Assembly (NCBI GenBank): GCA_016182875.1
Contig: JACPFQ010000001.1
Coordinates: forward strand, 85,680 to 149,679
Reading direction: 5' to 3'
DNA length: 64,000 nt
Source of the DNA: Candidatus Doudnabacteria bacterium
GTDB taxonomy: Bacteria > Patescibacteriota > Doudnabacteria > UBA920 > O2-02-FULL-48-8
In this document: one piece after another, positions 8,648 through 49,591 of the stretch
How positions within the stretch are numbered: the first letter of the stretch is position 1
Layout: the number at the start of each line of letters is the position of its first letter
Notes under the pieces: model-generated
What the model saw: the letters and a program-made list of their open reading frames with translations, nothing else
Told to the model about the DNA's origin: nothing
Databases searched by the model: none
Made by a program: the position numbers and the translations under genes

Positions 8648-8844
8648 TTCATCGAGTGGATTTTCAGCCGCGCGTATGAATGCATCAGGTGGATTGCGAC
8701 ATTGCCGGCTTTAAGAAACCAGTACAAATCAAAAATAATGATGTAAACAGAAACCCAAACCGGATGAAAATACGCCAGCAAAGGAGAGCCCAATAAAGTC
8801 GCCCAAGTCAAAACACCCGGGAAAATCTCAAAAAATTTAGCCAT
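8644..8844 (-). CDS. Small membrane protein (66 aa), translationally coupled to the GT2 gene
   Basis: Hydrophobic, with a 4-nt overlap onto the downstream gene. No homology recognised. Confidence 0.35.
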   Translation of the reverse strand: MAKFFEIFPGVLTWATLLGSPLLAYFHPVWVSVYIIIFDLYWFLKAGNVAIHLMHSYARLKIHSMN

Positions 8845-9214
8845 TGATGCGGATAAGGTTAATGCTTGCGATTAGAAAAATCAATTGAACGATAACGGTT
8901 GAAAAGTTGATGAAAAATGCGGCCAACTTTTCCCGCTTGAAAAAATAATTTGCCAGCAAAAAATTAATAATCAGAATCAGAAGCGCCGCGGCGGGAATGA
9001 TATAAATCGCATACGCTTTATCAATCAAATCAGCGCCGTATATGACATTATAGTGCAGGACGATGCTACTGGAACTGATTTTTACCTTGCTGGCTAGAAT
9101 CACCCAATGTATAATGTTAAAAAGCAATGCCAGAGCAATTGGTACCAGGTTGAACGGTTCCGAAATAAAAGGTCTTTTGGAAGCTAAAAGTTGATTGAGC
9201 TTGTCAAGAAGCAT
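8837..9214 (-). CDS. Membrane protein (125 aa, 3-4 TM)
   Basis: Hydrophobic. Overlaps the next minus-strand gene by 8 nt (operon-like). Confidence 0.4.
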   Translation of the reverse strand: MLLDKLNQLLASKRPFISEPFNLVPIALALLFNIIHWVILASKVKISSSSIVLHYNVIYGADLIDKAYAIYIIPAAALLILIINFLLANYFFKREKLAAFFINFSTVIVQLIFLIASINLIRING

Positions 9215-10807
9215 CGCCTAGCCATTATACAAAAAATGACCAATTTTATAAAGCCCCATTGGCCCATAATTACCATAATAATTTTGGGGATTTTTTTCCG
9301 GTTTTGGCAGATTTCTCAATTGCCCGGCGGCCTTTTCCCCGACGAAGCGGCCAACGGGTTGGACGTTAATTCAATTTTGGCCGGAGACTATAAGCCTTTT
9401 TATGAACGAGGGAACGGACGCGAGGCTTTGTTTTTTTATTTTCTGGCCATCCCCGTGGCCTTATTCGGGCGCGGAGCGTGGCAGCACCACGTCGTCTCAG
9501 CCGGCATCGGCCTGCTCTCGGTCATCGCCGCCTACTTGCTTGCGAAAAAAATGTTCGGCAAACGCATAGCCTTACTGGCAGGCTTTCTCATGGCGGTTTC
9601 CAGCTACGCGGCCACAATCAGCCGCACCGCCTTCCGCGCCAATACTGTTCCCCTGTTTTCCATCCTCGTTCTTTATTTTTTGATTTGTTTTTTCCAAACC
9701 CGGGAGCCAAAAAAGAAATATTGGTATGCCGCCTTATCGGGGCTGGCGTTCGCCTTGGGATTCTATACCTACATTTCTTTTCGCATGATGCTGCCCCTGC
9801 TCTTTGGCTTCGCTATTCTCCTCGTTTTGTCGCAGAGGCATAAGCTTAAGAGCATCATTCAGCAGTACTGGAAATATAAAACCGTTTTCGCCTTAACCTT
9901 CATCCTGGGCTTCTCCTGGATTGGATATTATTTCCTAACTCATCCGGGAACGTTCATCGGACGGGCCGGACAAGTCTCGATTTTTTCGCCTGATTTAAAC
10001 CAGGGGAATATTCTGGGAACTTTCTGGGAGGTGTTCAAAGCGACAATCCTCAGCTTTTTCAGTGCCGGCGACGTTAATTGGCGGCATAACGTTTCCGGCT
10101 ACCCGTTCTTATCACCCTTGGCTTCCCCATTTTTCGCTTTGGCTCTGATTGTATTCAGCTTTGCGATTTTTAAATTGTTGCGGCAGGTTTGGAGCAGGAA
10201 ATTAAATAAAGAGACAGTTTATCAGTCGTTGGTCGCGGTTTGGTTTTGGTTTATGCTTATTCCCGAATTGACCACGGCCGAAGGAATTCCTCACGGCTTG
10301 CGCCTGATCGGCGTCATTCCACCGATGTTTATTCTCTCTGCCTGGGGCATCGATTGGTTGTGGCAAAGAATCCGAATACGCGAAGCCTATTTTAAAGCCG
10401 GCCTGGCTTCCGTTTTTCTTTTTTCTACTTTTGCCGTTAATTATCACGCCTACTTCGTCGTTGCGGCAGAAAGCCCCGAATACTACTATGCTTTCCGCTC
10501 GGATCTTTCGGTTGTGAGCCAATACCTAAATGCCCGGAACCAAAAAGAGAAGACTTACTTATCACTGGATAAATTTTCGGTCCAGACCGTAGACTACCTG
10601 ACTACCGCCGCGAACCGTCCGTATATTCTTTTGGTTCCGGAAAAAAGCTTTGCCATAAAACTCAACCAAGGCGACCAAGTGGTATTCACCCAGAGCACCA
10701 TTTTTGACAGCATTAAATTCAAACAGCACCACCCAGACAGCAAGCTTGTGCTCGAGAGAAAAAATAAATTTGGCGAAAAAATAATGCTTGTCTACGAACG
10801 ATTATGA
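9191..10807 (+). CDS. PMT/ArnT-family (GT39/GT83) membrane glycosyltransferase
   Basis: 'DEAANGL', about 12 TM helices, and the COG1807 pattern. The true start may be the M at 9236. Confidence 0.8.
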   Translation: MIELVKKHRLAIIQKMTNFIKPHWPIITIIILGIFFRFWQISQLPGGLFPDEAANGLDVNSILAGDYKPFYERGNGREALFFYFLAIPVALFGRGAWQHHVVSAGIGLLSVIAAYLLAKKMFGKRIALLAGFLMAVSSYAATISRTAFRANTVPLFSILVLYFLICFFQTREPKKKYWYAALSGLAFALGFYTYISFRMMLPLLFGFAILLVLSQRHKLKSIIQQYWKYKTVFALTFILGFSWIGYYFLTHPGTFIGRAGQVSIFSPDLNQGNILGTFWEVFKATILSFFSAGDVNWRHNVSGYPFLSPLASPFFALALIVFSFAIFKLLRQVWSRKLNKETVYQSLVAVWFWFMLIPELTTAEGIPHGLRLIGVIPPMFILSAWGIDWLWQRIRIREAYFKAGLASVFLFSTFAVNYHAYFVVAAESPEYYYAFRSDLSVVSQYLNARNQKEKTYLSLDKFSVQTVDYLTTAANRPYILLVPEKSFAIKLNQGDQVVFTQSTIFDSIKFKQHHPDSKLVLERKNKFGEKIMLVYERL

Positions 10808-19102: not shown

Positions 19103-19699
19103 TTATTTGGTTAATTCTTTGAATACGTCTTCCAATTTCTCCAGCGCGTGCTTGCGGTGGTCCATAATCGTTGACTCTTCCTCGTTAAGCTCGCACCAGT
19201 ATTTTTTGTAATTCGGCAGGTAAGTCACCGACCGGTAAGGATAATGCGGGATGATTTTTTCTGACGGCTTTTCGGCGATCACTCCTTCAATCCCGCCGTG
19301 AGAGGTGAAAATGCCGAATGGCGTAGCCAATGCCAGCACTATCGAAAATTTGCAGGCTCTTTGCTCAGCCGGTACGTCCTTCATTCTTTTCATGACTTCC
19401 GAGATTATTTCATCATCACTCATCGTGCGGCCCAGCCAGCGGTGGCTCTTAATTCCCGGCTCTCCGCCCAAAGCTTCTATTTCCATGCCGCCGTCGTCAA
19501 CCAGTGTGGGGACACCTGATTTCTCAAAATAGTATTTCGCTTTATTAATGGCTTCTTCTTCAAAAGTATTGCCTTTTTCTTCGGGAGCCGGAATATTCAA
19601 ATCTTTGGCGGAAACAATCTCAAGGTTGTAGTTTTTGAGCATCGTTTTGTAGCTGTTCACTTTGGACGGATTTCCGGTTCCTATAAGAAGTTTTTTCAT
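19103..19699 (-). CDS. rdgB: Non-canonical purine NTP pyrophosphatase (Ham1/RdgB/ITPase)
   Basis: 'LLIGTGNPSKV', 'DDGGMEIEALGGEPGIKSHRW'. Start at MKKLL; the longer ORF is an N-terminal extension. Confidence 0.8.
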   Translation of the reverse strand: MKKLLIGTGNPSKVNSYKTMLKNYNLEIVSAKDLNIPAPEEKGNTFEEEAINKAKYYFEKSGVPTLVDDGGMEIEALGGEPGIKSHRWLGRTMSDDEIISEVMKRMKDVPAEQRACKFSIVLALATPFGIFTSHGGIEGVIAEKPSEKIIPHYPYRSVTYLPNYKKYWCELNEEESTIMDHRKHALEKLEDVFKELTK

Positions 19700-24797: not shown

Positions 24798-25109
24798 TCA
24801 GGGTTTAATTTCTAAAACGAGACTGATCGTCTGACCGCCGGTGACTTTTTCTTTCTTGCGTACTTCTGCTTTCAGAGGCAGGACATATGCTGCGGATTTT
24901 TTGTCATAGAAAATTGATGTCTTCCAACTGGTCCGGCCGAGCCTGACGATAACGGGCAAAGAACTCCATCCTCGGTGCATATCCGAAAACAACTCCTTGA
25001 TCTTGTCTGACTGCTTGCGGGGCAGAGTCACCATATGCCACGCCGCCATTCCTGGCCAAATCCAAACCTTGGTTTTGATTTTATACCGACTCCTTGGTAA
25101 CATTCTCAT
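24798..25109 (-). CDS. DUF1905-domain protein (paralog 2)
   Basis: Same pattern as paralog 1, about 60% identical by eye. Confidence 0.6.
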   Translation of the reverse strand: MRMLPRSRYKIKTKVWIWPGMAAWHMVTLPRKQSDKIKELFSDMHRGWSSLPVIVRLGRTSWKTSIFYDKKSAAYVLPLKAEVRKKEKVTGGQTISLVLEIKP

Positions 25110-25132
25110 ATTCTTAAGAATATTGGAATATC
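25100..25132. promoter_or_regulatory. 31-bp repeat ATTCTCA(C/T)ATTCT(C/T)AAGAATATTGGAAT(G/A)TC, copy 1 (promoter region of DUF1905 paralog 2)
   Basis: Four copies, at 25100, 25440, 26907 and 27041. Nested palindromes CATTC..GAATG and AATATT. Confidence 0.5.
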
Positions 25133-25436
25133 AAAACTGCGAAAGGATCTTCTTGAATCTTTCACCATAAGGCGAAAGCTGGTGTTCAACCTTCCGCCCT
25201 TTGTAAGCCTTATTAACCAATCCCGCCTGTACCAGGCGGCGAGTATGCTCAGAGATAGTCTTAAAGTTGCAACGAAGCACATCCGCGATCTGTTCTAGAT
25301 TAATCCCCGGCTGCCTGGCTATCAGCAATAAAATATCGATCCGCCGATGGTTGGCTATCCCCTTAAAATGTCTTTCAAGTTGTTTCGCTGTTTTCATTTC
25401 TTTTTCGCTTCGGACTCTATAAAACCAGTCTATCAC
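25131..25436 (-). CDS. ArsR-family transcriptional regulator (paralog 2)
   Basis: 'HRRIDILLLIARQPGINLEQIADVLRCNFKTISEHTRRLVQAGLV'. Confidence 0.8.
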   Translation of the reverse strand: MIDWFYRVRSEKEMKTAKQLERHFKGIANHRRIDILLLIARQPGINLEQIADVLRCNFKTISEHTRRLVQAGLVNKAYKGRKVEHQLSPYGERFKKILSQF

Positions 25437-25439
25437 AAC

Positions 25440-25470
25440 ATTCTCACATTCTCAAGAATATTGGAATGTC
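25440..25470. promoter_or_regulatory. 31-bp repeat copy 2, immediately upstream of arsR-2
   Basis: Near-identical to the other copies. Confidence 0.5.
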
Positions 25471-25498
25471 TTAACGCCCCAGACCCCGTGTGGGACGT

Positions 25499-25831
25499 TT
25501 ATTTCTTAAGATAAGTCACGCTTCTGCCGGTTCGGCCGATTTGGCGCAATTTGCCTTGCTTTTCCAACTCATCCAGATATCGCTCGGCTGAGGTGTTGGA
25601 GACTCCAAGCATTTTTTCAACCATGTCATTGGTAATTTCATCATTCGCTCCAAAGCTAGCAAGAATCCGATCCAAATTTTTCCGGTGCTCTTCGGCCCGC
25701 ATCAGGTTCACTTCATTTTCGTCCCTGCCTACTTTGCCATTCTGGGGAAGAATCTGATTTTTGCCGAACCAAAATTTGGCAAAAATAACGCCAATGAGGA
25801 AGCCAATGGATATCATCAAAAAATCTCTCAT
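25499..25831 (-). CDS. Membrane-anchored protein with a C-terminal wHTH-like domain (110 aa)
   Basis: N-terminal TM 'ISIGFLIGVIFAKFWF', C-terminal 'ERYLDELEKQGKLRQIGRTGRSVTYL'. Truncated copies of its 5' end lie at 26332-26403 and 27045-27107. Confidence 0.5.
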   Translation of the reverse strand: MRDFLMISIGFLIGVIFAKFWFGKNQILPQNGKVGRDENEVNLMRAEEHRKNLDRILASFGANDEITNDMVEKMLGVSNTSAERYLDELEKQGKLRQIGRTGRSVTYLKK

Positions 25832-25844
25832 AAAATTTTAATTA

Positions 25845-26003
25845 ATATTTATCCATAATGGCAGTTGCATCGTAACCATACTCTTCGGCTTGTTTCAAGA
25901 TTTCTTTCAACTCACCTTTCTTTATAAGAATAAACCCTGATTTTCTCAGGGCCTTAAGGATTCTCGACTGCGAGACATCAGACGGTAACTTAGGTGGTAA
26001 CAT
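25845..26003 (-). pseudogene. HicA-like toxin remnant (52 aa, lacks the central GSH segment)
   Basis: 'MLPPKLPSDVSQSRILKALRKSGFILIKKGE..LKEILKQAEEYG' matches the HicA N- and C-terminal segments but not the catalytic core. Overlaps the upstream gene by 14 nt. Confidence 0.35.
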
Positions 26004-26328
26004 GAACTAATTGATTTTGTTTCTCAAACAGGTCACCTTTGATATTGATTAAGGCAGGGTGGCAGAACCGCGCCGGAACTTCAAACGCTGTAAAAATAGC
26101 ATCTTTGATATTGTGCTCTAATTCCTCTATTGTGGCCCCACTGGTGATTATAGTACCTCGAGTGTAGTCAACAGAGCGGGCAACGAAGTATGATTGTCCG
26201 TCTTCTTCAACTTTCTCAAATCGAAAATTAATACCTCTACCCCTTAACTCAACAAGCATATCTTCTAGATTATCATGAGCTTGATTTTTTGTAGCAGTAT
26301 ATGATTGTATTCTTTGTAGTAATCTCAT
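25990..26328 (-). CDS. HicB/UPF0150-like antitoxin-fold protein
   Basis: 'FRFEKVEEDGQSYFVARSVDYTRGTIITSGATIEELEHNIKDAIFTAFE'. Confidence 0.5.
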   Translation of the reverse strand: MRLLQRIQSYTATKNQAHDNLEDMLVELRGRGINFRFEKVEEDGQSYFVARSVDYTRGTIITSGATIEELEHNIKDAIFTAFEVPARFCHPALINIKGDLFEKQNQLVHVTT

Positions 26329-26331
26329 GAT

Positions 26332-26403
26332 TTAATTATAGTCTAATCGTTTTAGGTGGTCAATAAACAAAAACCCAACAGCCACCATCAAAAAATCTCT
26401 CAT
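26332..26403 (-). pseudogene. Truncated duplicate of the 5' end of gene 25499-25831 (MRDFLMVAVGFLFIDHLKRLDYN*)
   Basis: ATGAGAGATTTTTTGATG plus a conserved upstream 'TTAATTAAA' are identical to the intact gene start. Confidence 0.5.
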
Positions 26404-26441
26404 AAATTATTTAATTAAATTCCAAGAATTCAGATTTTTAC

Positions 26442-26850
26442 CTACTGAACCATAATAGTATAGTTTAGAGTAATAACACCAGTTTTTAATTTATGAAATA
26501 CAAAAAGATACGCAGGTTTGTTCCGCTGATTTTTCTTAATCTTTAATTTCCTACTAACCTGGTCCAATAACTTTATTGGTAAGATAATAAATTCGTTGAT
26601 TCCCGTTTCACGGGTACGCGCTACTAGCACAGTAAAAACTCTTGACTCAACAAACTGAAAAGTGCCCAGTCTTATTCCAATGCTTTGTCTTGACCTGAAT
26701 AAGATAAGTCCTTGCTTCTTTTATTGCAGCAATATCCACACCATAATCAACCGGCAAAATATTTGCATTAAACCCCCGAAACAAAAGCTCGCTCATAACA
26801 GCAGCTTCTCCGCCTTTACCAGTAAAGATATTGATTGATCTCTTGTCCAT
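26442..26850 (-). other. Two small ORFs (62 and 67 aa); the 67-aa ORF has a PD-(D/E)xK-like signature (VDYGVDIAAIKEARTYLIQVK), possibly nuclease gene remnants
   Basis: ORFs at 26442-26630 and 26647-26850, in a region full of gene fragments. Confidence 0.3.
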
Positions 26851-26906
26851 AGATAAAGTCTACCACAAAAGAAAAAGCGTCTTTAGCCAACGTCAACCTT
26901 TATGAT

Positions 26907-26937
26907 ATTCTCACATTCTCAAGAATATTGGAATGTC
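26907..26937. promoter_or_regulatory. 31-bp repeat copy 3
   Basis: Identical core. Confidence 0.45.
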
Positions 26938-27040
26938 AATTCCGTTTTCGACACATTTGTACCAATATCCGAATTGCACCTGCCCAGCCGTCTGGCGGGG
27001 TAATTAAGCAAATCAAGGTTCGATCATGAAGAGTTCTAAT

Positions 27041-27071
27041 ATTCTCACATTCTCAAGAATGTCGGAATGTC
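27041..27071. promoter_or_regulatory. 31-bp repeat copy 4 (variant ..AAGAATGTCGGAATGTC)
   Basis: Truncates the gene-start fragment at 27045-27107. Confidence 0.45.
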
Positions 27072-27107
27072 TAAGAACCCGACAGCAACCAATAAAAAAT
27101 CTCTCAT
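27045..27107 (-). pseudogene. Second truncated duplicate of the 25499-25831 gene start (MRDFLLVAVGFLDIPTFLRM*)
   Basis: Same ATGAGAGATTTTTT start. The reading frame runs into the 31-bp repeat. Confidence 0.45.
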
Positions 27108-29326: not shown

Positions 29327-29644
29327 TTAATAAAATTCTCTATCAACATAAATTTCTGAAGAATAAATCTTACGTTCTGGGCCGCTCATTACTAATCGTG
29401 GCTTAATTTCTGATTGAGGTATTGTAAAGTCATGTAAATCTTCTCCAGATGCTACAGCTAGCTCTTTTATGCAATCATTAAACTCATTAGCATATTTCCC
29501 TTGTACATGAGATTTAGGCAAATTATTTTTTAACGCTGTCAATTTAGATAACGATCTGGCGAGTTGCTTATCCATAATTGAAGGATTCTTATATTTTAGA
29601 AAAACCAAAATCTTTTCCGACAGGTTTAAGTTCTTGATTATCAA
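29327..29644 (-). CDS. Hypothetical 105-aa protein, translationally coupled to the upstream EVE-nuclease gene
   Basis: ATGA overlap with the 29641-30693 gene. No recognisable domain. Confidence 0.4.
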   Translation of the reverse strand: MIIKNLNLSEKILVFLKYKNPSIMDKQLARSLSKLTALKNNLPKSHVQGKYANEFNDCIKELAVASGEDLHDFTIPQSEIKPRLVMSGPERKIYSSEIYVDREFY

Positions 29645-30693
29645 CAGTGTTCTAAATAATTAATAAAATCAATATATTTTTTATCGGTTGGTTCCCGTGA
29701 TGGGACTAAAATCCTGTATTGGTCCTCAAAAGTTATATTCTTTTCTTTTTTGAATTTATTGATCTCAAAATAATCATATTCATATAGTTGCACTATTCCT
29801 TTTCGTGCTTGGACTTTAAAATTTCTGTTTTCTGTACTTTTTACTTCAAAGAGAAATGAACGCTTACCGTCATGCGCAAACAAATCAACATACTCATTAG
29901 AAAGCGTAGCATATCCCTTCTTTCTAAATATGCTTATCAGTTGTTCAAGGACAGAATGATGAGATGCTTCTGCTCGAGCCAGAATATCATTATCTCGCTC
30001 GACTATAGAATAAGGTTTAATTATTAATCGCTTCTTGATTGATTCTAAAAATCTCAAGGAAGCTGCGTGTCTTAGAGTTTCAGTTGCATTATGAACTTCA
30101 ACTAAATCTGATGCCTTCTGTTCAATCGCGGGACCACGAGTTGAGTGTCCGGTATATAAATGTAATGGCCTATTTTGAAATAAAATTTGTTGAGCAACTT
30201 CGGGCCGTACCGTGGAAAAACTACCCATTTGTGGGAAACCCTTAATTTCTGAAATTGGGATTCGATTTCCAACCAGTTGACTAATCAGTGGAACCGTAGC
30301 AACATCATTGGCTGGTGTGGGTGATTCCCAATTTGCAGGATTAGGTAATTCGCCGAATAAATATATTTCAGTTAACGGAACTAATAATGGCCAACGGTTT
30401 ACATTGTTTTTTATTTCATAATGCCATAAATAGTTATTTTTTATCGAAAAATCAAAACCAACTACTCCAATTCCGATTATGCCGGATTTAGCTACGCCCG
30501 GGAAAGCTGAAGTATCTCCTGATGAACTATGAATAAAAAATATATCGCCTGTTTGCAATTTTTCCCAATCTTTTCTATTTTTGTCTTTAGCTTCAAGTCC
30601 CCAAGTAAAATATTTAATAGCGGTCAACCAGTGCTCAGGCGGACCAGTAAACTTAAAAAACTGTTTTTGATTTAGAGCCGAAGAAAGATCCAT
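29641..30693 (-). CDS. EVE (PUA-like) domain fused to a PD-(D/E)xK nuclease (DUF3883-like); putative modification-dependent restriction endonuclease
   Basis: N-terminus 'KQFFKFTGPPEHWLTAIKYFTWGLE...LQTGDIFFIHSSSG...GIIGIGVV' is EVE-like. C-terminus 'VDLFAHDGKRSFLFEVKSTENRNFKVQARKGIVQLYEY' carries D...E-x-K. Confidence 0.55.
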   Translation of the reverse strand: MDLSSALNQKQFFKFTGPPEHWLTAIKYFTWGLEAKDKNRKDWEKLQTGDIFFIHSSSGDTSAFPGVAKSGIIGIGVVGFDFSIKNNYLWHYEIKNNVNRWPLLVPLTEIYLFGELPNPANWESPTPANDVATVPLISQLVGNRIPISEIKGFPQMGSFSTVRPEVAQQILFQNRPLHLYTGHSTRGPAIEQKASDLVEVHNATETLRHAASLRFLESIKKRLIIKPYSIVERDNDILARAEASHHSVLEQLISIFRKKGYATLSNEYVDLFAHDGKRSFLFEVKSTENRNFKVQARKGIVQLYEYDYFEINKFKKEKNITFEDQYRILVPSREPTDKKYIDFINYLEHC

Positions 30694-31040
30694 TATAATT
30701 TATTGTACTTAGTATGTTTCCCTTTGGCTTTGTCTACTGGGTATTTCTTCTCGTTCTGTTCCATTTTTTTATGAAAAGCTTCAATTATATCAACACCAAT
30801 ATCATTACTGATAAGCAATACCCAATAAAGGACGTCGGACAATTCTTCAGCTACTTCTTCTTTATGATCTTTCACATACGCTTCCATTTCTTCTTTGTTT
30901 TTCCATTGAAAATGCTCAGCCACTTCCGCAGCTTCTAACATCAAGGACAAGGCTAAGTCTTTAGGATTATGAAACTGCTTCCACTCTCTATCATCTCTGT
31001 ATTTAATTATTCTGTCAGTTAAATCTTTTATATCCGACAT
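30693..31040 (-). CDS. MazG-like nucleoside-triphosphate pyrophosphohydrolase (all-alpha dUTPase/dCTPase-like)
   Basis: 'EWKQFHNPKDLALSLMLEAAEVAEHFQWK...ELSDVLYWVLLISNDIGVDI'. Its stop overlaps the start of the EVE gene. Confidence 0.7.
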   Translation of the reverse strand: MSDIKDLTDRIIKYRDDREWKQFHNPKDLALSLMLEAAEVAEHFQWKNKEEMEAYVKDHKEEVAEELSDVLYWVLLISNDIGVDIIEAFHKKMEQNEKKYPVDKAKGKHTKYNKL

Positions 31041-31221
31041 AAAAAATTATCCAAATTACTTGGCTTAATAATGCCACGAATTGCTTGGAAAATCAATCAA
31101 CATCTCAGACGGGTGTGGGGTGTTAGATTAAGGTTATAGGTTTTAGGTGATAGGTTATAGAAATCAAAAACGGGCCTTGAAGCCGCTTTAAATATATTAG
31201 CTTTCGCTTGGGTCAAATTTG

Positions 31222-31250
31222 TTGACGAGTTTATACTTAAAACCTAAAAT
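31222..31250 (+). promoter_or_regulatory. Near-consensus sigma70 promoter (TTGACG, 17-nt spacer, TAAAAT)
   Basis: -35 at 31222-31227, 17-nt spacer, -10 at 31245-31250. Confidence 0.45.
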
Positions 31251-31256
31251 CTTTGT

Positions 31257-31394
31257 ACCGTCAGATTTTGGGGAAAGCAGGACGAAAACCCTGCCAGAGA
31301 CACCTGGTCAAAACCTCCACTTGGGTTCGGAGGGGCTTCGAGGGCACCAGGCACCTGTTGAGGTGAGGACTCCTCCAATTCTGACGGCTTTTTC
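31257..31394 (+). ncRNA. Candidate small structured RNA (~135 nt) closed by a long-range stem ACCGUCAGA...UCUGACGGC plus UUUUUC
   Basis: Transcript predicted from the promoter above. Ends pair over 9-10 bp, and the internal hairpins GCAGG..CCUGC, ACCUGG..CCAGGU and CCUCC..GGAGG are followed by a T-run. Class not identified. Confidence 0.35.
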
Positions 31395-31442
31395 TTATGA
31401 AAAAAATCAGCTGGCAAGATTTGCTCCTGCCAGCCTTAACTC

Positions 31443-31692
31443 TCAGACCCGCCGGAAGTCTCGGCCTTCGGACGGTTGGTACAACCCAAGCTTGCGGTTG
31501 CTGCGGTTGGGGAAGACCGGGATGGTGCCTGCGATGAACCTGCCGAGGTCTGTAACCTCGCGGTCATAGCGTTTGGCCCGCACCCAATCTTCTCTCTTGA
31601 CGGCCCGGCCACGAAGTTTCTCGTAGCGCTTCTTGAGGAACTCGGCTGCCGCCAGTTCATTCATGTACTTGATTTGCTCCAACCCGTGCATA
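31443..31692 (-). CDS. Hypothetical 82-aa ORF downstream of the DUF62 gene
   Basis: Starts at MHGLEQ and overlaps the 3' end of the DUF62 gene by about 35 nt. Sits in the GC-rich island. Weak support. Confidence 0.3.
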
Positions 31693-32481
31693 CTCACCTC
31701 CTGCTTCATGAACGGCCAGTAAATCACCGACCTTAAGTCCCAATCTTGCCGCTGCCGACCCGCCCTTGACCACGATTTCGAGGAACCGCGTATTAGCAAG
31801 CCCCGAACTGCCGATGACCACGGCCAACTCGCCTTCCGGCACGTCACAGAGCCGCGGGTAAACCGGCAGATGTCCCAGATATTGCCGGTACCGCCGGTCA
31901 GACAAGCCAACCACATCCTCGGTCGTCAGCGTGGTCTTGAGATTACCAAAGCAATCAACATACCAGACGACCTCCTCTGTCCACGGCTCAATTTCTTGCG
32001 GCGGACCCCCGTGAAAACCGACTGACTCGAACTCCGCAACAAGCAAAGGCAGAAAATCAAAGCTGCGGAATTGCGAACTTTCGATCTGCAGCCGCTCGTG
32101 GTCGTCGATAACCTGGGCGTAAACCAGCTGCTGCAGCGTGCGCGCGACATCAATCGGGTAGCAGGAACGAATGCCGACCTTGGGCAGCAGTCCCAGGGTG
32201 TTGACCGTCGTTACAACGAACGGGCCATCTTTGCATTCCACCTGTACGAACGGCGGGCCATTGGTACCTGACGTCTGCTCGTTCCGAGGTGCGACATTGC
32301 ACAGAATCCAGCCCGGTGCGTTCCCAGCCGCATCCAGCGCGTCGATCAGGCAGCCGGCGGCTTCGTACTCGTTGACCACAGGCATGGTGGTCACCGGACA
32401 ATTAAGCCAAGCAGCTGCTCTAGTAGACAGCCTCCCCAAAGCATTGGCATCGGAGCAGTCGTTGATTATGGTCACAAACAT
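31657..32481 (-). CDS. DUF62 family protein (SAM hydroxide adenosyltransferase / SAM-dependent halogenase (fluorinase/chlorinase) family)
   Basis: N-terminus 'MFVTIINDCSDANALGRL...', 'NVAPRNEQTSG', C-terminal 'LEIVVKGGSAAARLGLKVGDLLAV'. Perfect SD AAGGAGG. Coding GC is about 62%. Confidence 0.6.
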   Translation of the reverse strand: MFVTIINDCSDANALGRLSTRAAAWLNCPVTTMPVVNEYEAAGCLIDALDAAGNAPGWILCNVAPRNEQTSGTNGPPFVQVECKDGPFVVTTVNTLGLLPKVGIRSCYPIDVARTLQQLVYAQVIDDHERLQIESSQFRSFDFLPLLVAEFESVGFHGGPPQEIEPWTEEVVWYVDCFGNLKTTLTTEDVVGLSDRRYRQYLGHLPVYPRLCDVPEGELAVVIGSSGLANTRFLEIVVKGGSAAARLGLKVGDLLAVHEAGGEYARVGANQVHE

Positions 32482-32544
32482 CTTTGGCCTCCTTAGTGAT
32501 TCCGACGCTGCGGTCGGAATGATTTTACTTCGTAAAATCAAAAA

Positions 32545-32700
32545 GCCTCTTTCTTCATGAAAGAGGCTTGCCTAAGTACTTTTGGTGTCAAACCCGTCTA
32601 ACGGGTTAAATGCCCAAACAGGCCTCTTCCATGGAAAGAAGCCATCATCATAGCGCCCGAGCAGGTTCGATATAGGAATTTCATTAAGATTATCTTAAGC
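32545..32700 (-). promoter_or_regulatory. Riboswitch-like 5' leader of the DUF62 gene, with mutually exclusive terminator and antiterminator hairpins
   Basis: Minus-strand RNA has hairpin GGCUUCUUUCC-AUG-GAAGAGGCC, hairpin ACCCGU-UAG-ACGGGU, then terminator AAGCCUCUUUC-AUGAA-GAAAGAGGCUU plus UUUUGAUUUU 40 nt before the SD. The 3' half of the first hairpin can pair with the 5' half of the terminator. A GAUGAUGG k-turn-like element is present. Ligand class unassigned. Confidence 0.4.
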
Positions 32701-32724
32701 TTGAGTAAATAAAAAGTCAAATAA

Positions 32725-48009: not shown

Positions 48010-48634
48010 GGCCTAATTCTAGCATTTTTGCCCTCTAAACAAAAACAGCAACCGTTCTGGCCAATTCTGCACTCTTAGTGCGAAGTTTTGGCCCAAGGCC
48101 GCTGATTTTTGTTTGTTACAAAGCTTTGTTAGGCTTAACCTCAAATATTTTTGCAAAAGCAAAATTTTGAGTCAATGTTGTTATGTGGAAAATCTGTTGA
48201 GATTTTTTGTGTACAAAAAATTCACCGCTAGGGTGAATCTTTTGATTAAAGATCGGTGTGGTACCGGTTCTGTTAACTGAGTCCTTACGAACTTTCGCTA
48301 ACCGGGGAAAAGGTCCAAGAGGTTACCCTTACTTGTTTGACACCGAAGGCATTTCTCCTTCAGCGTACCTTCTCAGAAACCAGTATCTCTTGATCAGTCG
48401 ATCCCGCTTTTCAGCGGAACCTGCTTCGCAAGAGTTGCCCCTTACGAAGACCATGGTATAGCTATTCTAGATTAGGTAAAATTTGAGGTCAAATTATTTT
48501 AAAGCAACAAAAAACAGCCGGTTTTAAAGGCTTTTTTGTGAGGTGTGAATAAATTGTTCTTAAAGAGTGGAAAATCTGTAGAATTGACAAAAATTTACTA
48601 AAAAAGGATAATTAATATATCAATGGATAGGGCC

Positions 48635-48663
48635 TTGACTTTGAGACTAAATAGGCTTATAAT
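48635..48663 (+). promoter_or_regulatory. Consensus sigma70 promoter TTGACT, 17-nt spacer, TATAAT inside the gene desert
   Basis: -35 at 48635-48640, 17-nt spacer, -10 at 48658-48663. Confidence 0.45.
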
Positions 48664-49503
48664 TTAGAGCCAATGAATAAAAACAAGACAAAAGGATATA
48701 ATAGATTTAGATAATCTGATAATATCTTTTTGCCTGTTTTTTTCTTACGATACTTGTAGATTTGTTGCTAAAGCCAGCGGTTGTAAGAGAGTTTAATACT
48801 TAGATAACAGTTGTAGTTTTATAACTGTTTAGAGCTAAAAAGTTCTAGATGTATTACTTACGTCTAGGCTTTTTAGTATGTGGAGGGAACCGGAACCACT
48901 TCCCTTTGGCGATGATTAACCGGCCGTTCCGGTAAACTGCATTGCAGTACCAGAAACCATCATCACCAAGGAAGCACTGTTGGTGAACTGTTGAGGGTTG
49001 TTGTGTCTGTTCTGTCATAAAGGCGGCTTTCCTGTGTTGGCTTGCTCTCTTACAACCACCTACAACCGCTAGTTCTAGAAACAAATTCTTATTTTGAAGG
49101 TACAAATAAAATCGCCTCACGAGCCAGCACTCTGGGGTTTAACTTTCGTTAATCCCCAAGATTTGAGCGCCTGGGGGAATTTGATTTTCCCCAGAGCACT
49201 AGCTCTTAAAGCGATTTTGCCCTAGTGAGTATCGGACTTGCTGGCTTCTCCGGGCGCTCAACTCGGAGAAAGTTGTAGATTTTTAAAGTGCTTATATCTT
49301 AAAGGATTTTATTTAGGCTGTCAAACGCGGCCTTTTCCTATCCTCACTTATTATAGCAATACCGGTTTACAAAGTCCATATTATGTCTTGAGGGGAGAGG
49401 TGTTAACTGTTGAGACTGCATACGCGAAGCATTATTCGCATTCGCGAGCGAGGAGCTGGTGTACTTTGAGGAGAGCGTGGCGATCTACTTTCTAGCCCGT
49501 TAA

Positions 49504-49580
49504 TTCATCGATGCTGATAAATCAGCAGGCTACACTCGGGTTAGATTGCTTCGTCGCTACACTCCTCGCAAATGCGCAGA
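49504..49580. repeat. Two small palindromic repeat elements overlapping the 3' end of mreB-2: GCTGATAAATCAGC (also at 12299) and TTAGATTGCTTCGTCGC..CTCCTCGCAAATGCG (also at 52925-52965)
   Basis: Shared 35-40-nt segments at both loci. Confidence 0.5.
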
Positions 49581-49591
49581 CAGACAGTTTC

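What the first reader, a model, noticed from the sequence alone, without database searches (positions are those of the whole stretch)
31222..31394. Promoter-driven ~135-nt structured small RNA candidate at the island edge
A near-consensus sigma70 promoter (TTGACG, 17-nt spacer, TAAAAT) is followed by a transcript whose 5' and 3' ends pair (ACCGUCAGA/UCUGACGGC) and close a multi-hairpin domain. It ends in UUUUUC. End-to-end pairing and this size are typical of stable small RNAs (4.5S SRP-like, 6S-like), but no conserved SRP motif (GGAA tetraloop, AGCAGCC) is evident. It overlaps a spurious plus-strand ORF.
Basis: seen in the sequence. Interest (0 to 1): 0.5.

Follow-up and report, generated by a model that had tools for sequence, protein, structure and literature searches.

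The report
Unconfirmed orphan small-RNA candidate in Doudnabacteria
A promoter-like site followed by a ~135-base foldable stretch really is there, in a genome of an uncultured groundwater-type bacterium. It matches no known RNA family, has no detectable relatives, and folds only slightly better than average DNA of this genome, so it stays a plausible but unproven lineage-specific small RNA.

Summary
The sequence features are real. TTGACG (31222-27), a 17-nt spacer and TAAAAT (31245-50) precede a GC-rich stretch. Its start (CCGUCAGA, 31258-65) pairs perfectly with its end (UCUGACGG, 31380-87), followed by UUUUUC.

The support is modest. The fold z-score is -2.2 to -2.4, which about 9% of all windows of this genome reach. 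The promoter match has roughly a 7% chance expectation in this AT-rich spacer. A promoter sitting directly on an end-closing stem is expected 0.02-0.06 times per window.

Rfam finds nothing, even at E<=10, and there is no tRNA or tmRNA. There is no SRP or 6S signature. I found no homologue in viral, genome, metagenome, phage or plasmid collections. Loci syntenic for either flanking gene also lack it.

The organism is a Candidatus Doudnabacteria MAG. All public copies of the locus are 100% identical and the nearest relatives are very distant. Conservation and covariation therefore cannot be tested.

Best reading (about 0.45): an independently transcribed, lineage-specific plus-strand small RNA of unknown function. 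Main rival (about 0.33): a chance promoter-like site plus inverted repeat at a horizontally acquired island border.

Stronger unannotated RNA candidates lie elsewhere in the window, at 48.0-49.6 kb and in the 32.5-32.7 kb leader.

The parts
31222..31250 (+). Sigma-70-like promoter: -35 TTGACG (31222-27), 17-nt spacer, -10 TAAAAT (31245-50)
   Evidence: It matches 10 of 12 consensus positions. Sites of this quality often sit directly upstream of genes in this genome (one search lists distances of 7-146 nt for several). The chance expectation in this AT-rich spacer is 7%.
31257..31257 (+). Predicted transcription start (A, 7 nt after the -10 hexamer)
   Evidence: Inferred from promoter geometry. 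Not measured.
31258..31265 (+). P1 5' arm, CCGUCAGA
   Evidence: pair probability 0.97-1.0 with 31380-31387.
31268..31274 (+). P2 5' arm, UUGGGGA, pairing with 31371-31378 (C31374 bulged)
   Evidence: pair probabilities 0.66-0.78.
31277..31294 (+). P3 hairpin, GCAGG-ACGAAAAC-CCUGC
   Evidence: probabilities 0.98-1.0. The loop is fully accessible.
31295..31302 (+). Single-stranded junction CAGAGACA
   Evidence: unpaired probability 0.8-0.9.
31303..31351 (+). P4 stem (CCUGGU 31303-08 / ACCAGG 31346-51) enclosing a 37-nt apical domain. The domain has alternative folds and carries CCUCC and GGAGG motifs.
   Evidence: P4 probabilities 0.77-0.84, inner helices 0.18-0.48, with several near-isoenergetic alternatives.
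31352..31365 (+). P5 hairpin, CACCU-GUUG-AGGUG
   Evidence: probabilities 0.88-0.90.
31371..31387 (+). 3' arms of P2 (31371-78) and P1 (UCUGACGG, 31380-87)
31389..31394 (+). U run, UUUUUC: the possible 3' end
   Evidence: The scan does not call it a terminator, because the closing stem encloses about 115 nt rather than a 3-8 nt loop.
31399..31435 (-). Canonical intrinsic terminator of the convergent 82-aa gene (11-bp hairpin followed by GAUUUUUUUC)
   Evidence: It abuts the candidate's 3' end and bounds the unit on the right.
31443..31691 (-). Flanking gene: 82-aa basic protein (NCBI HYV13_00720), with a strong Shine-Dalgarno sequence, overlapping the SAM_HAT gene 31657-32481
   Evidence: Homologues of 65-70% identity exist.
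30693..31040 (-). Flanking gene: MazG-like pyrophosphohydrolase, first gene of the AT-rich island operon, transcribed away from the candidate

Best explanation
This is a stand-alone, lineage-specific small RNA gene on the plus strand. Transcription would start at about A31257 from the TTGACG-17-TAAAAT promoter. It would end at the U run 31389-93, or leak into the back-to-back terminator at 31409-35. The product would be about 132-138 nt.

Its first and last 8 nt pair (P1). Together with P2 they close a four-way junction carrying two short hairpins (P3, P5) and a longer, flexible arm (P4 plus apical domain). End-to-end pairing would protect the RNA against exonucleases.

The exposed segments are the ACGAAAAC loop, the CAGAGACA junction, GUCAAAA, and the AGGAC linker, along with the CCUCC/GGAGG motifs of the flexible arm. 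They would be the sites that contact a target mRNA or a protein.

What is shown: the sequence anatomy, the absence of a coding role, and the absence of membership in any curated RNA family. What is inferred: transcription, the RNA ends, the fold and any regulatory role.
For: - The promoter matches 10 of 12 positions with the optimal 17-nt spacer, and a purine lies at +7.
- In this genome, sites of the same quality lie 7-146 nt upstream of real genes, for example GreA and the ORFs at 26328, 40434 and 46074.
- The perfect 8-bp stem starts 1 nt after the predicted start and ends 1 nt before the U run. The expected number of such promoter-stem coincidences is about 0.02-0.06 per window.
- The body is 58% GC against 34% in the spacer that carries the promoter. 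This is the usual look of a structured RNA gene.
- No plus-strand gene follows, and the unit is bounded by a minus-strand terminator.
- The overlapping ORFs have no protein relatives and no start signals.
- Neither Prodigal-type calls on the nine Logan contigs nor the NCBI locus tags place a gene there.
Against: - The fold is not exceptional for this genome: the z-score of -2.2 to -2.4 is at the 9.5th percentile of windows.
- All confident helices are pure Watson-Crick, so they fit the minus strand equally well (z = -3.3).
- The 3' end is not a canonical terminator. Real terminators in this window are compact hairpins followed by 5-7 U.
- No homologue was found by any route.
- There is no sequence variation among the nine public copies, so there is no covariation evidence at all.
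- The promoter lies in the AT-rich island DNA and the body in core-like GC-rich DNA. The unit could therefore be an accident of the island junction.
Confidence: 0.45

Rival explanations
1. This is not a functional unit. A chance promoter-like hexamer pair in AT-rich island DNA lies next to a GC-rich spacer, which is the old 3' flank of the 82-aa gene. That spacer happens to contain an 8-bp inverted repeat and a T run.
For: - The promoter-like match has a 7% chance expectation in this spacer, or 14% on either strand.
- Eight-bp long-range stems with a T-rich tail are common: 64 in the window, with 17 expected by chance.
- The fold z-score is ordinary.
- The composition changes exactly at the predicted start.
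- The MazG-like/350-aa genes to the left are horizontally spread, at 65-86% identity across CPR classes, while the core SAM_HAT gene's best relative is 49% identical. The junction is therefore probably young.
- Nothing like the candidate is found beside either flanking gene elsewhere.
Against: The joint coincidence of a promoter, a stem starting at +2, and a U run directly after the stem is expected only about 0.02-0.06 times per window. The 400-nt spacer is longer than a terminator plus a promoter need. Five separate helices with high pair probability fit inside the closing stem.
Confidence: 0.33
2. This is a highly divergent housekeeping RNA of this CPR lineage: a shortened 6S-like RNA that binds RNA polymerase, an SRP RNA, or another RNP scaffold.
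For: The ends pair and the RNA has its own promoter. With goodwill the fold can be read as a closing stem (P1+P2, 15 bp), a central region with one small hairpin on each strand (P3, P5), and a distal stem (P4), which is loosely 6S-like. Curated models may fit CPR RNAs poorly; two other strongly structured promoter-to-terminator units in the window also have no Rfam match.
Against: - Rfam shows no hit to 6S, SRP, Y RNA, RNase P or tmRNA, even at E<=10 on the 151-nt stretch alone.
- ARAGORN finds nothing.
- There is no GNRA-capped helix with the AGCAGCC-type SRP motif (sequence).
- P4 is only 6 bp and the length is 132-138 nt. From my own knowledge, 6S RNAs are about 150-200 nt with long irregular stems.
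- A housekeeping RNA should be found in other Patescibacteria, but pattern and seed searches of 185,579 species genomes and 241 million metagenome records found none.
Confidence: 0.05
3. The functional strand is the minus strand. The element would be a structured extension of the 3' UTR of the SAM_HAT/82-aa operon. Alternatively it would be a long 5' leader of the MazG-like island operon.
For: The minus strand folds slightly better (-55.0 kcal/mol, z = -3.3; 5.9th percentile). All neighbouring genes are on the minus strand. A weak hairpin plus a U run at 31165-31195 on the minus strand could act as an attenuator ahead of MazG.
Against: - A strong canonical terminator (31435-31399) stops minus-strand transcription just before the element.
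- No minus-strand promoter-like site lies between 31395 and 31450.
- Eleven other MazG-like/350-aa loci have quite different upstream regions and no such element: a tRNA, a MazE-like gene or a Fic gene.
- Five loci with 82-aa homologues end in their own compact terminators.
Confidence: 0.07
4. This is a relic: the leader, riboswitch or terminator region of a plus-strand gene that was lost when the island was inserted.
For: The unit ends in a stem plus a U run, as an 'off' riboswitch would, yet no gene follows. It sits at the island border.
Against: No riboswitch or leader family matches. There is no trace of a plus-strand pseudogene downstream, because the next 250 nt are occupied by a real minus-strand gene.
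Confidence: 0.07

Closest known systems
Generic bacterial trans-encoded small RNAs (own promoter, about 50-300 nt, stem plus U-run 3' end, often species- or genus-specific)
   Same: It is an intergenic, non-coding unit with a sigma-70-like promoter, a size of about 135 nt, a structured body with a few exposed single-stranded segments, a U run at the end, and a narrow phylogenetic distribution.
   Different: The 3' end is a long-range closing stem rather than a compact terminator hairpin. No target complementarity of 14 nt or more exists within the window. There is no expression evidence.
6S RNA (Rfam RF00013 and related families)
   Same: The 5' and 3' ends pair, it has its own promoter, and small hairpins can be drawn on both strands of a central region.
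   Different: There is no Rfam hit at E<=10. It is about 135 nt, against about 150-200 nt. The predicted shape is a four-way junction rather than a rod with a large open bubble. The distal stem is only 6 bp.
Bacterial small SRP RNA / 4.5S (RF00169)
   Same: Similar size, with paired ends.
   Different: There is no domain IV (helix 8) motif and no GNRA tetraloop in the right context. There is no Rfam hit.
Bacterial Y RNA-like RNAs (YrlA)
   Same: The ends pair in a stem that closes a multi-branched module of about 100-130 nt.
   Different: There is no tRNA-like T-arm or D-arm. There is no Rfam hit. No Ro/Rsr gene was seen nearby.

Membership tests
SRP RNA (4.5S, RF00169) | Helix 8 with a GNRA tetraloop and the conserved symmetric and asymmetric loops that bind Ffh. 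This is scored by the Rfam covariance model. | tested here: not met
   There is no match at the gathering score in the window and none at E<=10 on 31250-31400. The AGCAGCC-type motif is absent from the sequence.
6S RNA (RF00013 and lineage-specific 6S families) | Match to a 6S covariance model. | tested here: not met
   No hit at E<=10.
6S RNA (RF00013 and lineage-specific 6S families) | A rod-like fold of about 150-200 nt: a long closing stem, a large central bubble and a long terminal stem. | tested here: not met
   The candidate is 132-138 nt. Its MFE and centroid structures are a four-way junction, with a 15-bp closing stem (P1+P2) and a 6-bp distal stem.
6S RNA (RF00013 and lineage-specific 6S families) | Binds the sigma-70 holoenzyme and templates product RNA. 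| not testable with these tools
   This needs biochemistry.
tRNA / tmRNA / tRNA-like (including YrlA) | A cloverleaf or tRNA-like domain with a T-arm. | tested here: not met
   ARAGORN finds no gene in the window. Rfam gives no tRNA, tmRNA or Y RNA hit.
Riboswitch / cis-regulatory leader | Lies in the 5' UTR of a gene on the same strand. | tested here: not met
   The next plus-strand ORF of 100 aa or more starts 921 nt away and is antisense to SAM_HAT. The 46-aa ORF at 31397 has no Shine-Dalgarno sequence and overlaps the 82-aa gene in antisense.
Riboswitch / cis-regulatory leader | Match to a known aptamer family. | tested here: not met
Trans-encoded small RNA gene (generic) | Its own promoter in an intergenic region. 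| tested here: met
   A 10-of-12 sigma-70-like site with a 17-nt spacer. This is a consensus match only, with a 7% chance expectation.
Trans-encoded small RNA gene (generic) | An intrinsic terminator at the 3' end. | tested here: inconclusive
   An 8-bp stem plus UUUUU is present, but the stem encloses about 115 nt and the terminator scan does not call it.
Trans-encoded small RNA gene (generic) | A detectable transcript of defined length. | not testable with these tools
   No expression data are available.
Trans-encoded small RNA gene (generic) | Conservation or covariation in related genomes. | tested here: inconclusive
   No homologue was found. The nearest relatives are too distant for the test to be fair: the best SAM_HAT hit is 49% identical, and all same-species copies are identical.
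Miniature inverted-repeat element / repeat family | Multiple copies with terminal inverted repeats. | tested here: not met
   It is single-copy in the 64 kb (nhmmer and blastn; covariance model). The inverted termini are only 8 bp.

The most novel reading that the evidence does not exclude
The element is a genuine, stable, structured RNA specific to Doudnabacteria-like CPR bacteria. It would be either an extremely reduced 6S-type RNA polymerase regulator or the RNA subunit of an undescribed ribonucleoprotein. On this reading it is invisible to Rfam because CPR non-coding RNAs are poorly sampled. That would fit with at least two other promoter-to-terminator structured units in this window that also lack any Rfam match.
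Probability: 0.07. Interest if true: 0.5.

Novelty: new member of a known kind. Interest (0 to 1): 0.17.

Why it matters
If it is transcribed, it would be one of very few small-RNA genes proposed for candidate phyla radiation bacteria, whose regulatory RNAs are almost unknown. As it stands, it is a single-genome prediction with ordinary folding statistics. Its main practical value is to flag this MAG, and above all the 48.0-49.6 kb region and the conserved leader at 32.5-32.7 kb, as worth mapping with metatranscriptome reads.

Tried and rejected
1. Known RNA families. I ran Rfam at gathering scores on the whole window and at E<=10 on 30900-31700 and 31250-31400. Only noise appeared: DUF2693, CC0196, and the archaeal C/D-box families sR46 and sR45. 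ARAGORN found nothing.

2. Spurious-ORF trick. I searched the 57-aa minus-strand ORF covering the RNA with HMMER against 1.84 billion representatives. The only hits were two long low-complexity proteins.

3. Seeded searches with that ORF. Six 8-residue seeds were run against viral, genome and metagenome collections. Between 16 and 591 seed hits came back and none was confirmed. The window's own genome is not in those collections either. These seeds reliably detect only relatives of roughly 90% identity or more, so relatives at 70-85% identity could have been missed.

4. DNA patterns. These included a loop/junction-exact, stem-R/Y pattern, run on viral and metagenome contigs. All hits were chance matches inside unrelated sequence. 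A pure R/Y pattern is not accepted by the tool.

5. Phage and plasmid blastn gave nothing.

6. Synteny on the right side. The best SAM_HAT homologue is 49% identical and its locus is not syntenic. The 82-aa protein homologues at 65-70% identity (L125-L129) sit in other contexts and are followed by their own terminators.

7. Synteny on the left side. The MazG-like/350-aa pair was examined in eight genome loci and three Logan loci. No similar element was found by nhmmer or by a single-sequence covariance model.

8. Within-species variation. Nine Logan contigs are 100% identical to the window.

9. att-site or direct-repeat idea. A 14-nt identity, TTCTGACGGCTTTT, lies at 19259-72. It sits inside the Ham1-like gene, and the essential LysRS gene lies between the two copies, so I rejected it as chance.

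10. Target search. No antisense match of 14 nt or more exists in the window. An RNAduplex scan timed out.

11. Literature search for CPR small RNAs or 6S RNA found nothing relevant.

Full report
WHAT IS IN THE SEQUENCE

- TTGACG is at 31222-27, the spacer is 17 nt, and TAAAAT is at 31245-50. The consensus scan also reports this site, with 10 of 12 matches.
- An A at 31257 is the likely start.
- CCGUCAGA (31258-65) pairs perfectly with UCUGACGG (31380-87). That is 8 bp, not 9, because A31257 and C31388 do not pair.
- UUUUUC follows at 31389-94.

Inside the closing stem, ViennaRNA predicts the following:
- P2, 31268-74 with 31371-78, with one bulged C
- the P3 hairpin at 31277-94
- an 8-nt junction, CAGAGACA
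- P4, 31303-08 with 31346-51, enclosing a 37-nt apical part with several near-isoenergetic folds
- the P5 hairpin at 31352-65

The overall shape is a four-way junction. The accessible segments are the ACGAAAAC loop, CAGAGACA, GUCAAAA, the GUUG loop and AGGAC. The body is 58% GC, while the spacer that carries the promoter is 34% GC.

HOW UNUSUAL IS IT

Only moderately.
- MFE is -53.2 kcal/mol and z = -2.2 against dinucleotide shuffles. The minus strand does slightly better (z = -3.3).
- All confident helices are pure Watson-Crick, so the fold does not choose a strand.
- In my scan of 1390 windows of 138 nt over the 64 kb, the mean z is -0.48 with SD 1.4. The candidate ranks at the 9.5th percentile on the plus strand and the 5.9th on the minus strand.
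- A promoter-like site of this quality appears on the plus strand in 7% of shuffles of the AT-rich spacer.
- Eight-bp long-range stems followed by a T-rich tail occur 64 times in the window, against 17 in shuffles.
- The window has 24 promoter-like sites. From these rates, the expected number that sit directly on such a stem is about 0.02-0.06.

The combination is therefore suggestive, but no single feature is strong. Promoter-like sites of this quality in this genome often lie just upstream of real genes, such as GreA and the ORFs ending at 26328, 40434 and 46074. That adds some weight.

The 3' end is not a canonical terminator. Real terminators here are compact hairpins followed by 5-7 U. 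The scan does not call this one.

SURROUNDINGS

The organism is a candidate phyla radiation bacterium.
- SAM_HAT homologues are all from Parcubacteria-type MAGs.
- The flanking proteins are NCBI entries of a 'Candidatus Doudnabacteria bacterium' MAG: HYV13_00710 = MBI2355711 and HYV13_00720 = MBI2355713, on a 151-kb contig.
- Only one locus tag, the MazG-like gene, lies between them. The NCBI annotation therefore has no RNA gene here.

To the left is an AT-rich block, 0.32-0.39 GC over 26-31 kb. It is transcribed on the minus strand and contains:
- a MazG-like gene (30693-31040)
- a 350-aa protein
- a 105-aa protein
- a Zeta-toxin-like P-loop protein
- DUF2188 and DUF6804 proteins

To the right, on the minus strand, are an 82-aa basic protein (31443-31691, strong Shine-Dalgarno sequence), SAM_HAT (31657-32481), a small membrane-like ORF, Zincin_1 and GreA.

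The 82-aa gene ends in a canonical terminator at 31435-31399, which abuts the candidate's U run. No plus-strand gene follows the candidate. The overlapping plus-strand ORF (116 aa) and minus-strand ORF (57 aa) lack start signals and have no protein relatives.

SEARCH FOR WHAT IT IS

Rfam gives nothing at gathering scores in the whole window. It gives only noise at E<=10 on the local stretch. There is no tRNA or tmRNA. The SRP domain IV motif is absent, and the shape and size do not fit 6S. I therefore cannot file it under any curated family.

SEARCH FOR RELATIVES

All searches were negative.
- phage and plasmid blastn
- HMMER of the overlapping ORF against 1.84 billion proteins, in case relatives had been miscalled as genes
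- seeded searches of viral, species-genome and metagenome collections
- DNA patterns, including one that fixes loops and junctions and allows transitions in stems

Synteny did not help either.
- Nine Logan contigs carrying the locus are 100% identical.
- The closest SAM_HAT relative is 49% identical and not syntenic.
- Homologues of the 82-aa protein (65-70% identity, L125-L129) sit behind a tRNA or near an rve transposase. They have their own promoter, leader and terminator, and no similar element.
- The MazG-like/350-aa pair is conserved at 65-86% identity across many CPR lineages. It lies in defence-island-like contexts: an HSDR_N protein, MazE-like, Fic, an SLFN-type helicase and SocA. Once it sits directly behind a tRNA. 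None of the eleven loci has the element, by nhmmer or by a single-sequence covariance model.

So the candidate belongs to neither neighbouring module.

The negative result has limited power. No genome close enough for a fair conservation test is in the searchable data. My seeds would also miss most relatives below about 90% identity.

MOST LIKELY EXPLANATION AND RIVALS

I put about 0.45 on an independently transcribed, lineage-specific plus-strand small RNA. Its paired ends would stabilise it and its exposed loop and junction segments would contact a target or a protein. Transcription, the RNA ends and the function are all inferred.

I put about 0.33 on an accident of the island junction. On this reading, the promoter-like hexamers lie in AT-rich, horizontally acquired DNA, and the foldable body lies in core-like GC-rich DNA. 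The composition changes exactly at the predicted start.

Smaller shares go to three other readings:
- a minus-strand element (0.07), which the strong terminator just upstream on that strand argues against
- a relic leader or terminator of a lost plus-strand gene (0.07)
- a very divergent 6S- or SRP-type housekeeping RNA (0.05), which the Rfam result, the shape and the absence from other Patescibacteria argue against

VERDICT

It is an ordinary-looking orphan small-RNA candidate that cannot be validated with public sequence data. Interest is low (0.17). If it is real, it is a new member of a known kind.

The same window holds better unannotated RNA candidates:
- two promoter-to-terminator units at 48200-48457 and 49095-49290 on the minus strand (z = -5.4 and -6.4), with no Rfam match
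- a leader upstream of SAM_HAT that is conserved, with compensatory changes, in front of the 82-aa homologues of other genomes

Noticed in passing
window 48010-49590: This 1.6-kb stretch has no ORF of 90 aa or more. It carries five strong sigma-70-like sites and the most structured 138-nt windows of the whole 64 kb. Two promoter-to-structure-to-canonical-terminator units lie on the minus strand: 48457->48200 (258 nt, z = -5.4) and 49290->49095 (196 nt, roughly 30-bp rod, z = -6.4). On the plus strand there is also a long-range inverted repeat, 48778-93 with 49047-74. Rfam finds nothing, even at E<=1. These are much stronger non-coding RNA candidates than the assigned one.
   Followed up: partly
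window 32482-32720, minus strand; L125 2225-2436, L127 150-338, L128 612-801, L129 222-409: This is the leader of the SAM_HAT/82-aa operon. A TTGACT promoter is followed by the hairpin GGCUUCUUUCCAUGGAAGAGGCC and a terminator hairpin (AAGCCUCUUUC...GAAAGAGGCUUUUU). The 138-nt window here has z = -8. The same leader precedes the 82-aa homologues in other genomes. It shows compensatory changes: GGC/GCC to GAC/GUC in hairpin 1, and CCUC/GAGG to CCCC/GGGG in the terminator. The frame of the embedded mini-ORF is not conserved. It is a candidate attenuator or cis-regulatory RNA tied to the 82-aa gene.
   Followed up: partly
window 29641-31040 (minus strand); L130-L137, L151-L153: The MazG-like (115 aa) plus 350/368-aa gene pair is conserved at 62-86% identity across many CPR lineages, with 355 protein hits. 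The 350-aa protein has no significant Pfam domain and no PADLOC match. The neighbours elsewhere look like defence or toxin-antitoxin islands: HSDR_N, MazE-like, Fic, an SLFN-type helicase and SocA. In L133 and L134 a tRNA lies directly upstream.
   Followed up: partly
window 25092-27073; L130 upstream of MazG: Four copies of a roughly 30-nt operator-like palindromic repeat (ATTCTCACATTCTCAAGAATATTGGAATGTC) lie in the AT-rich block, near a small HTH gene at 25499-25831. A similar palindrome (ATTCTCGTATTCTCAAGAATACGAGAA) lies upstream of MazG in L130.
   Followed up: no
window 26335-26363 and 9224-9252, minus strand: Strong promoter-like sites end only 7 and 10 nt before the start codons of the ORFs 25990-26328 and 8837-9214. 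This suggests leaderless mRNAs in this genome.
   Followed up: no
window 31443-31691 and 31657-32481, minus strand; L127, L128, L129: The 82-aa basic protein overlaps the end of SAM_HAT by 35 nt here. In other genomes it stands alone, behind a tRNA gene, and in L127 it is next to an rve-family transposase. It may be a mobile or accessory gene of unknown function.
   Followed up: no
window 19259-19272: A 14-nt stretch, TTCTGACGGCTTTT, is identical to the candidate's 3' end (31379-92). It lies inside the Ham1-like gene. I judged it to be chance (blastn-short E = 0.026).
   Followed up: yes
window 31131-31160: A short run of TAGGT-type direct repeats (GGTTATAGGTTTTAGGTGATAGGTTATAG) lies in the spacer between the MazG-like gene and the candidate's promoter. 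A related ACCTAAAA motif overlaps the candidate's -10 region. This could be a regulator binding site.
   Followed up: no
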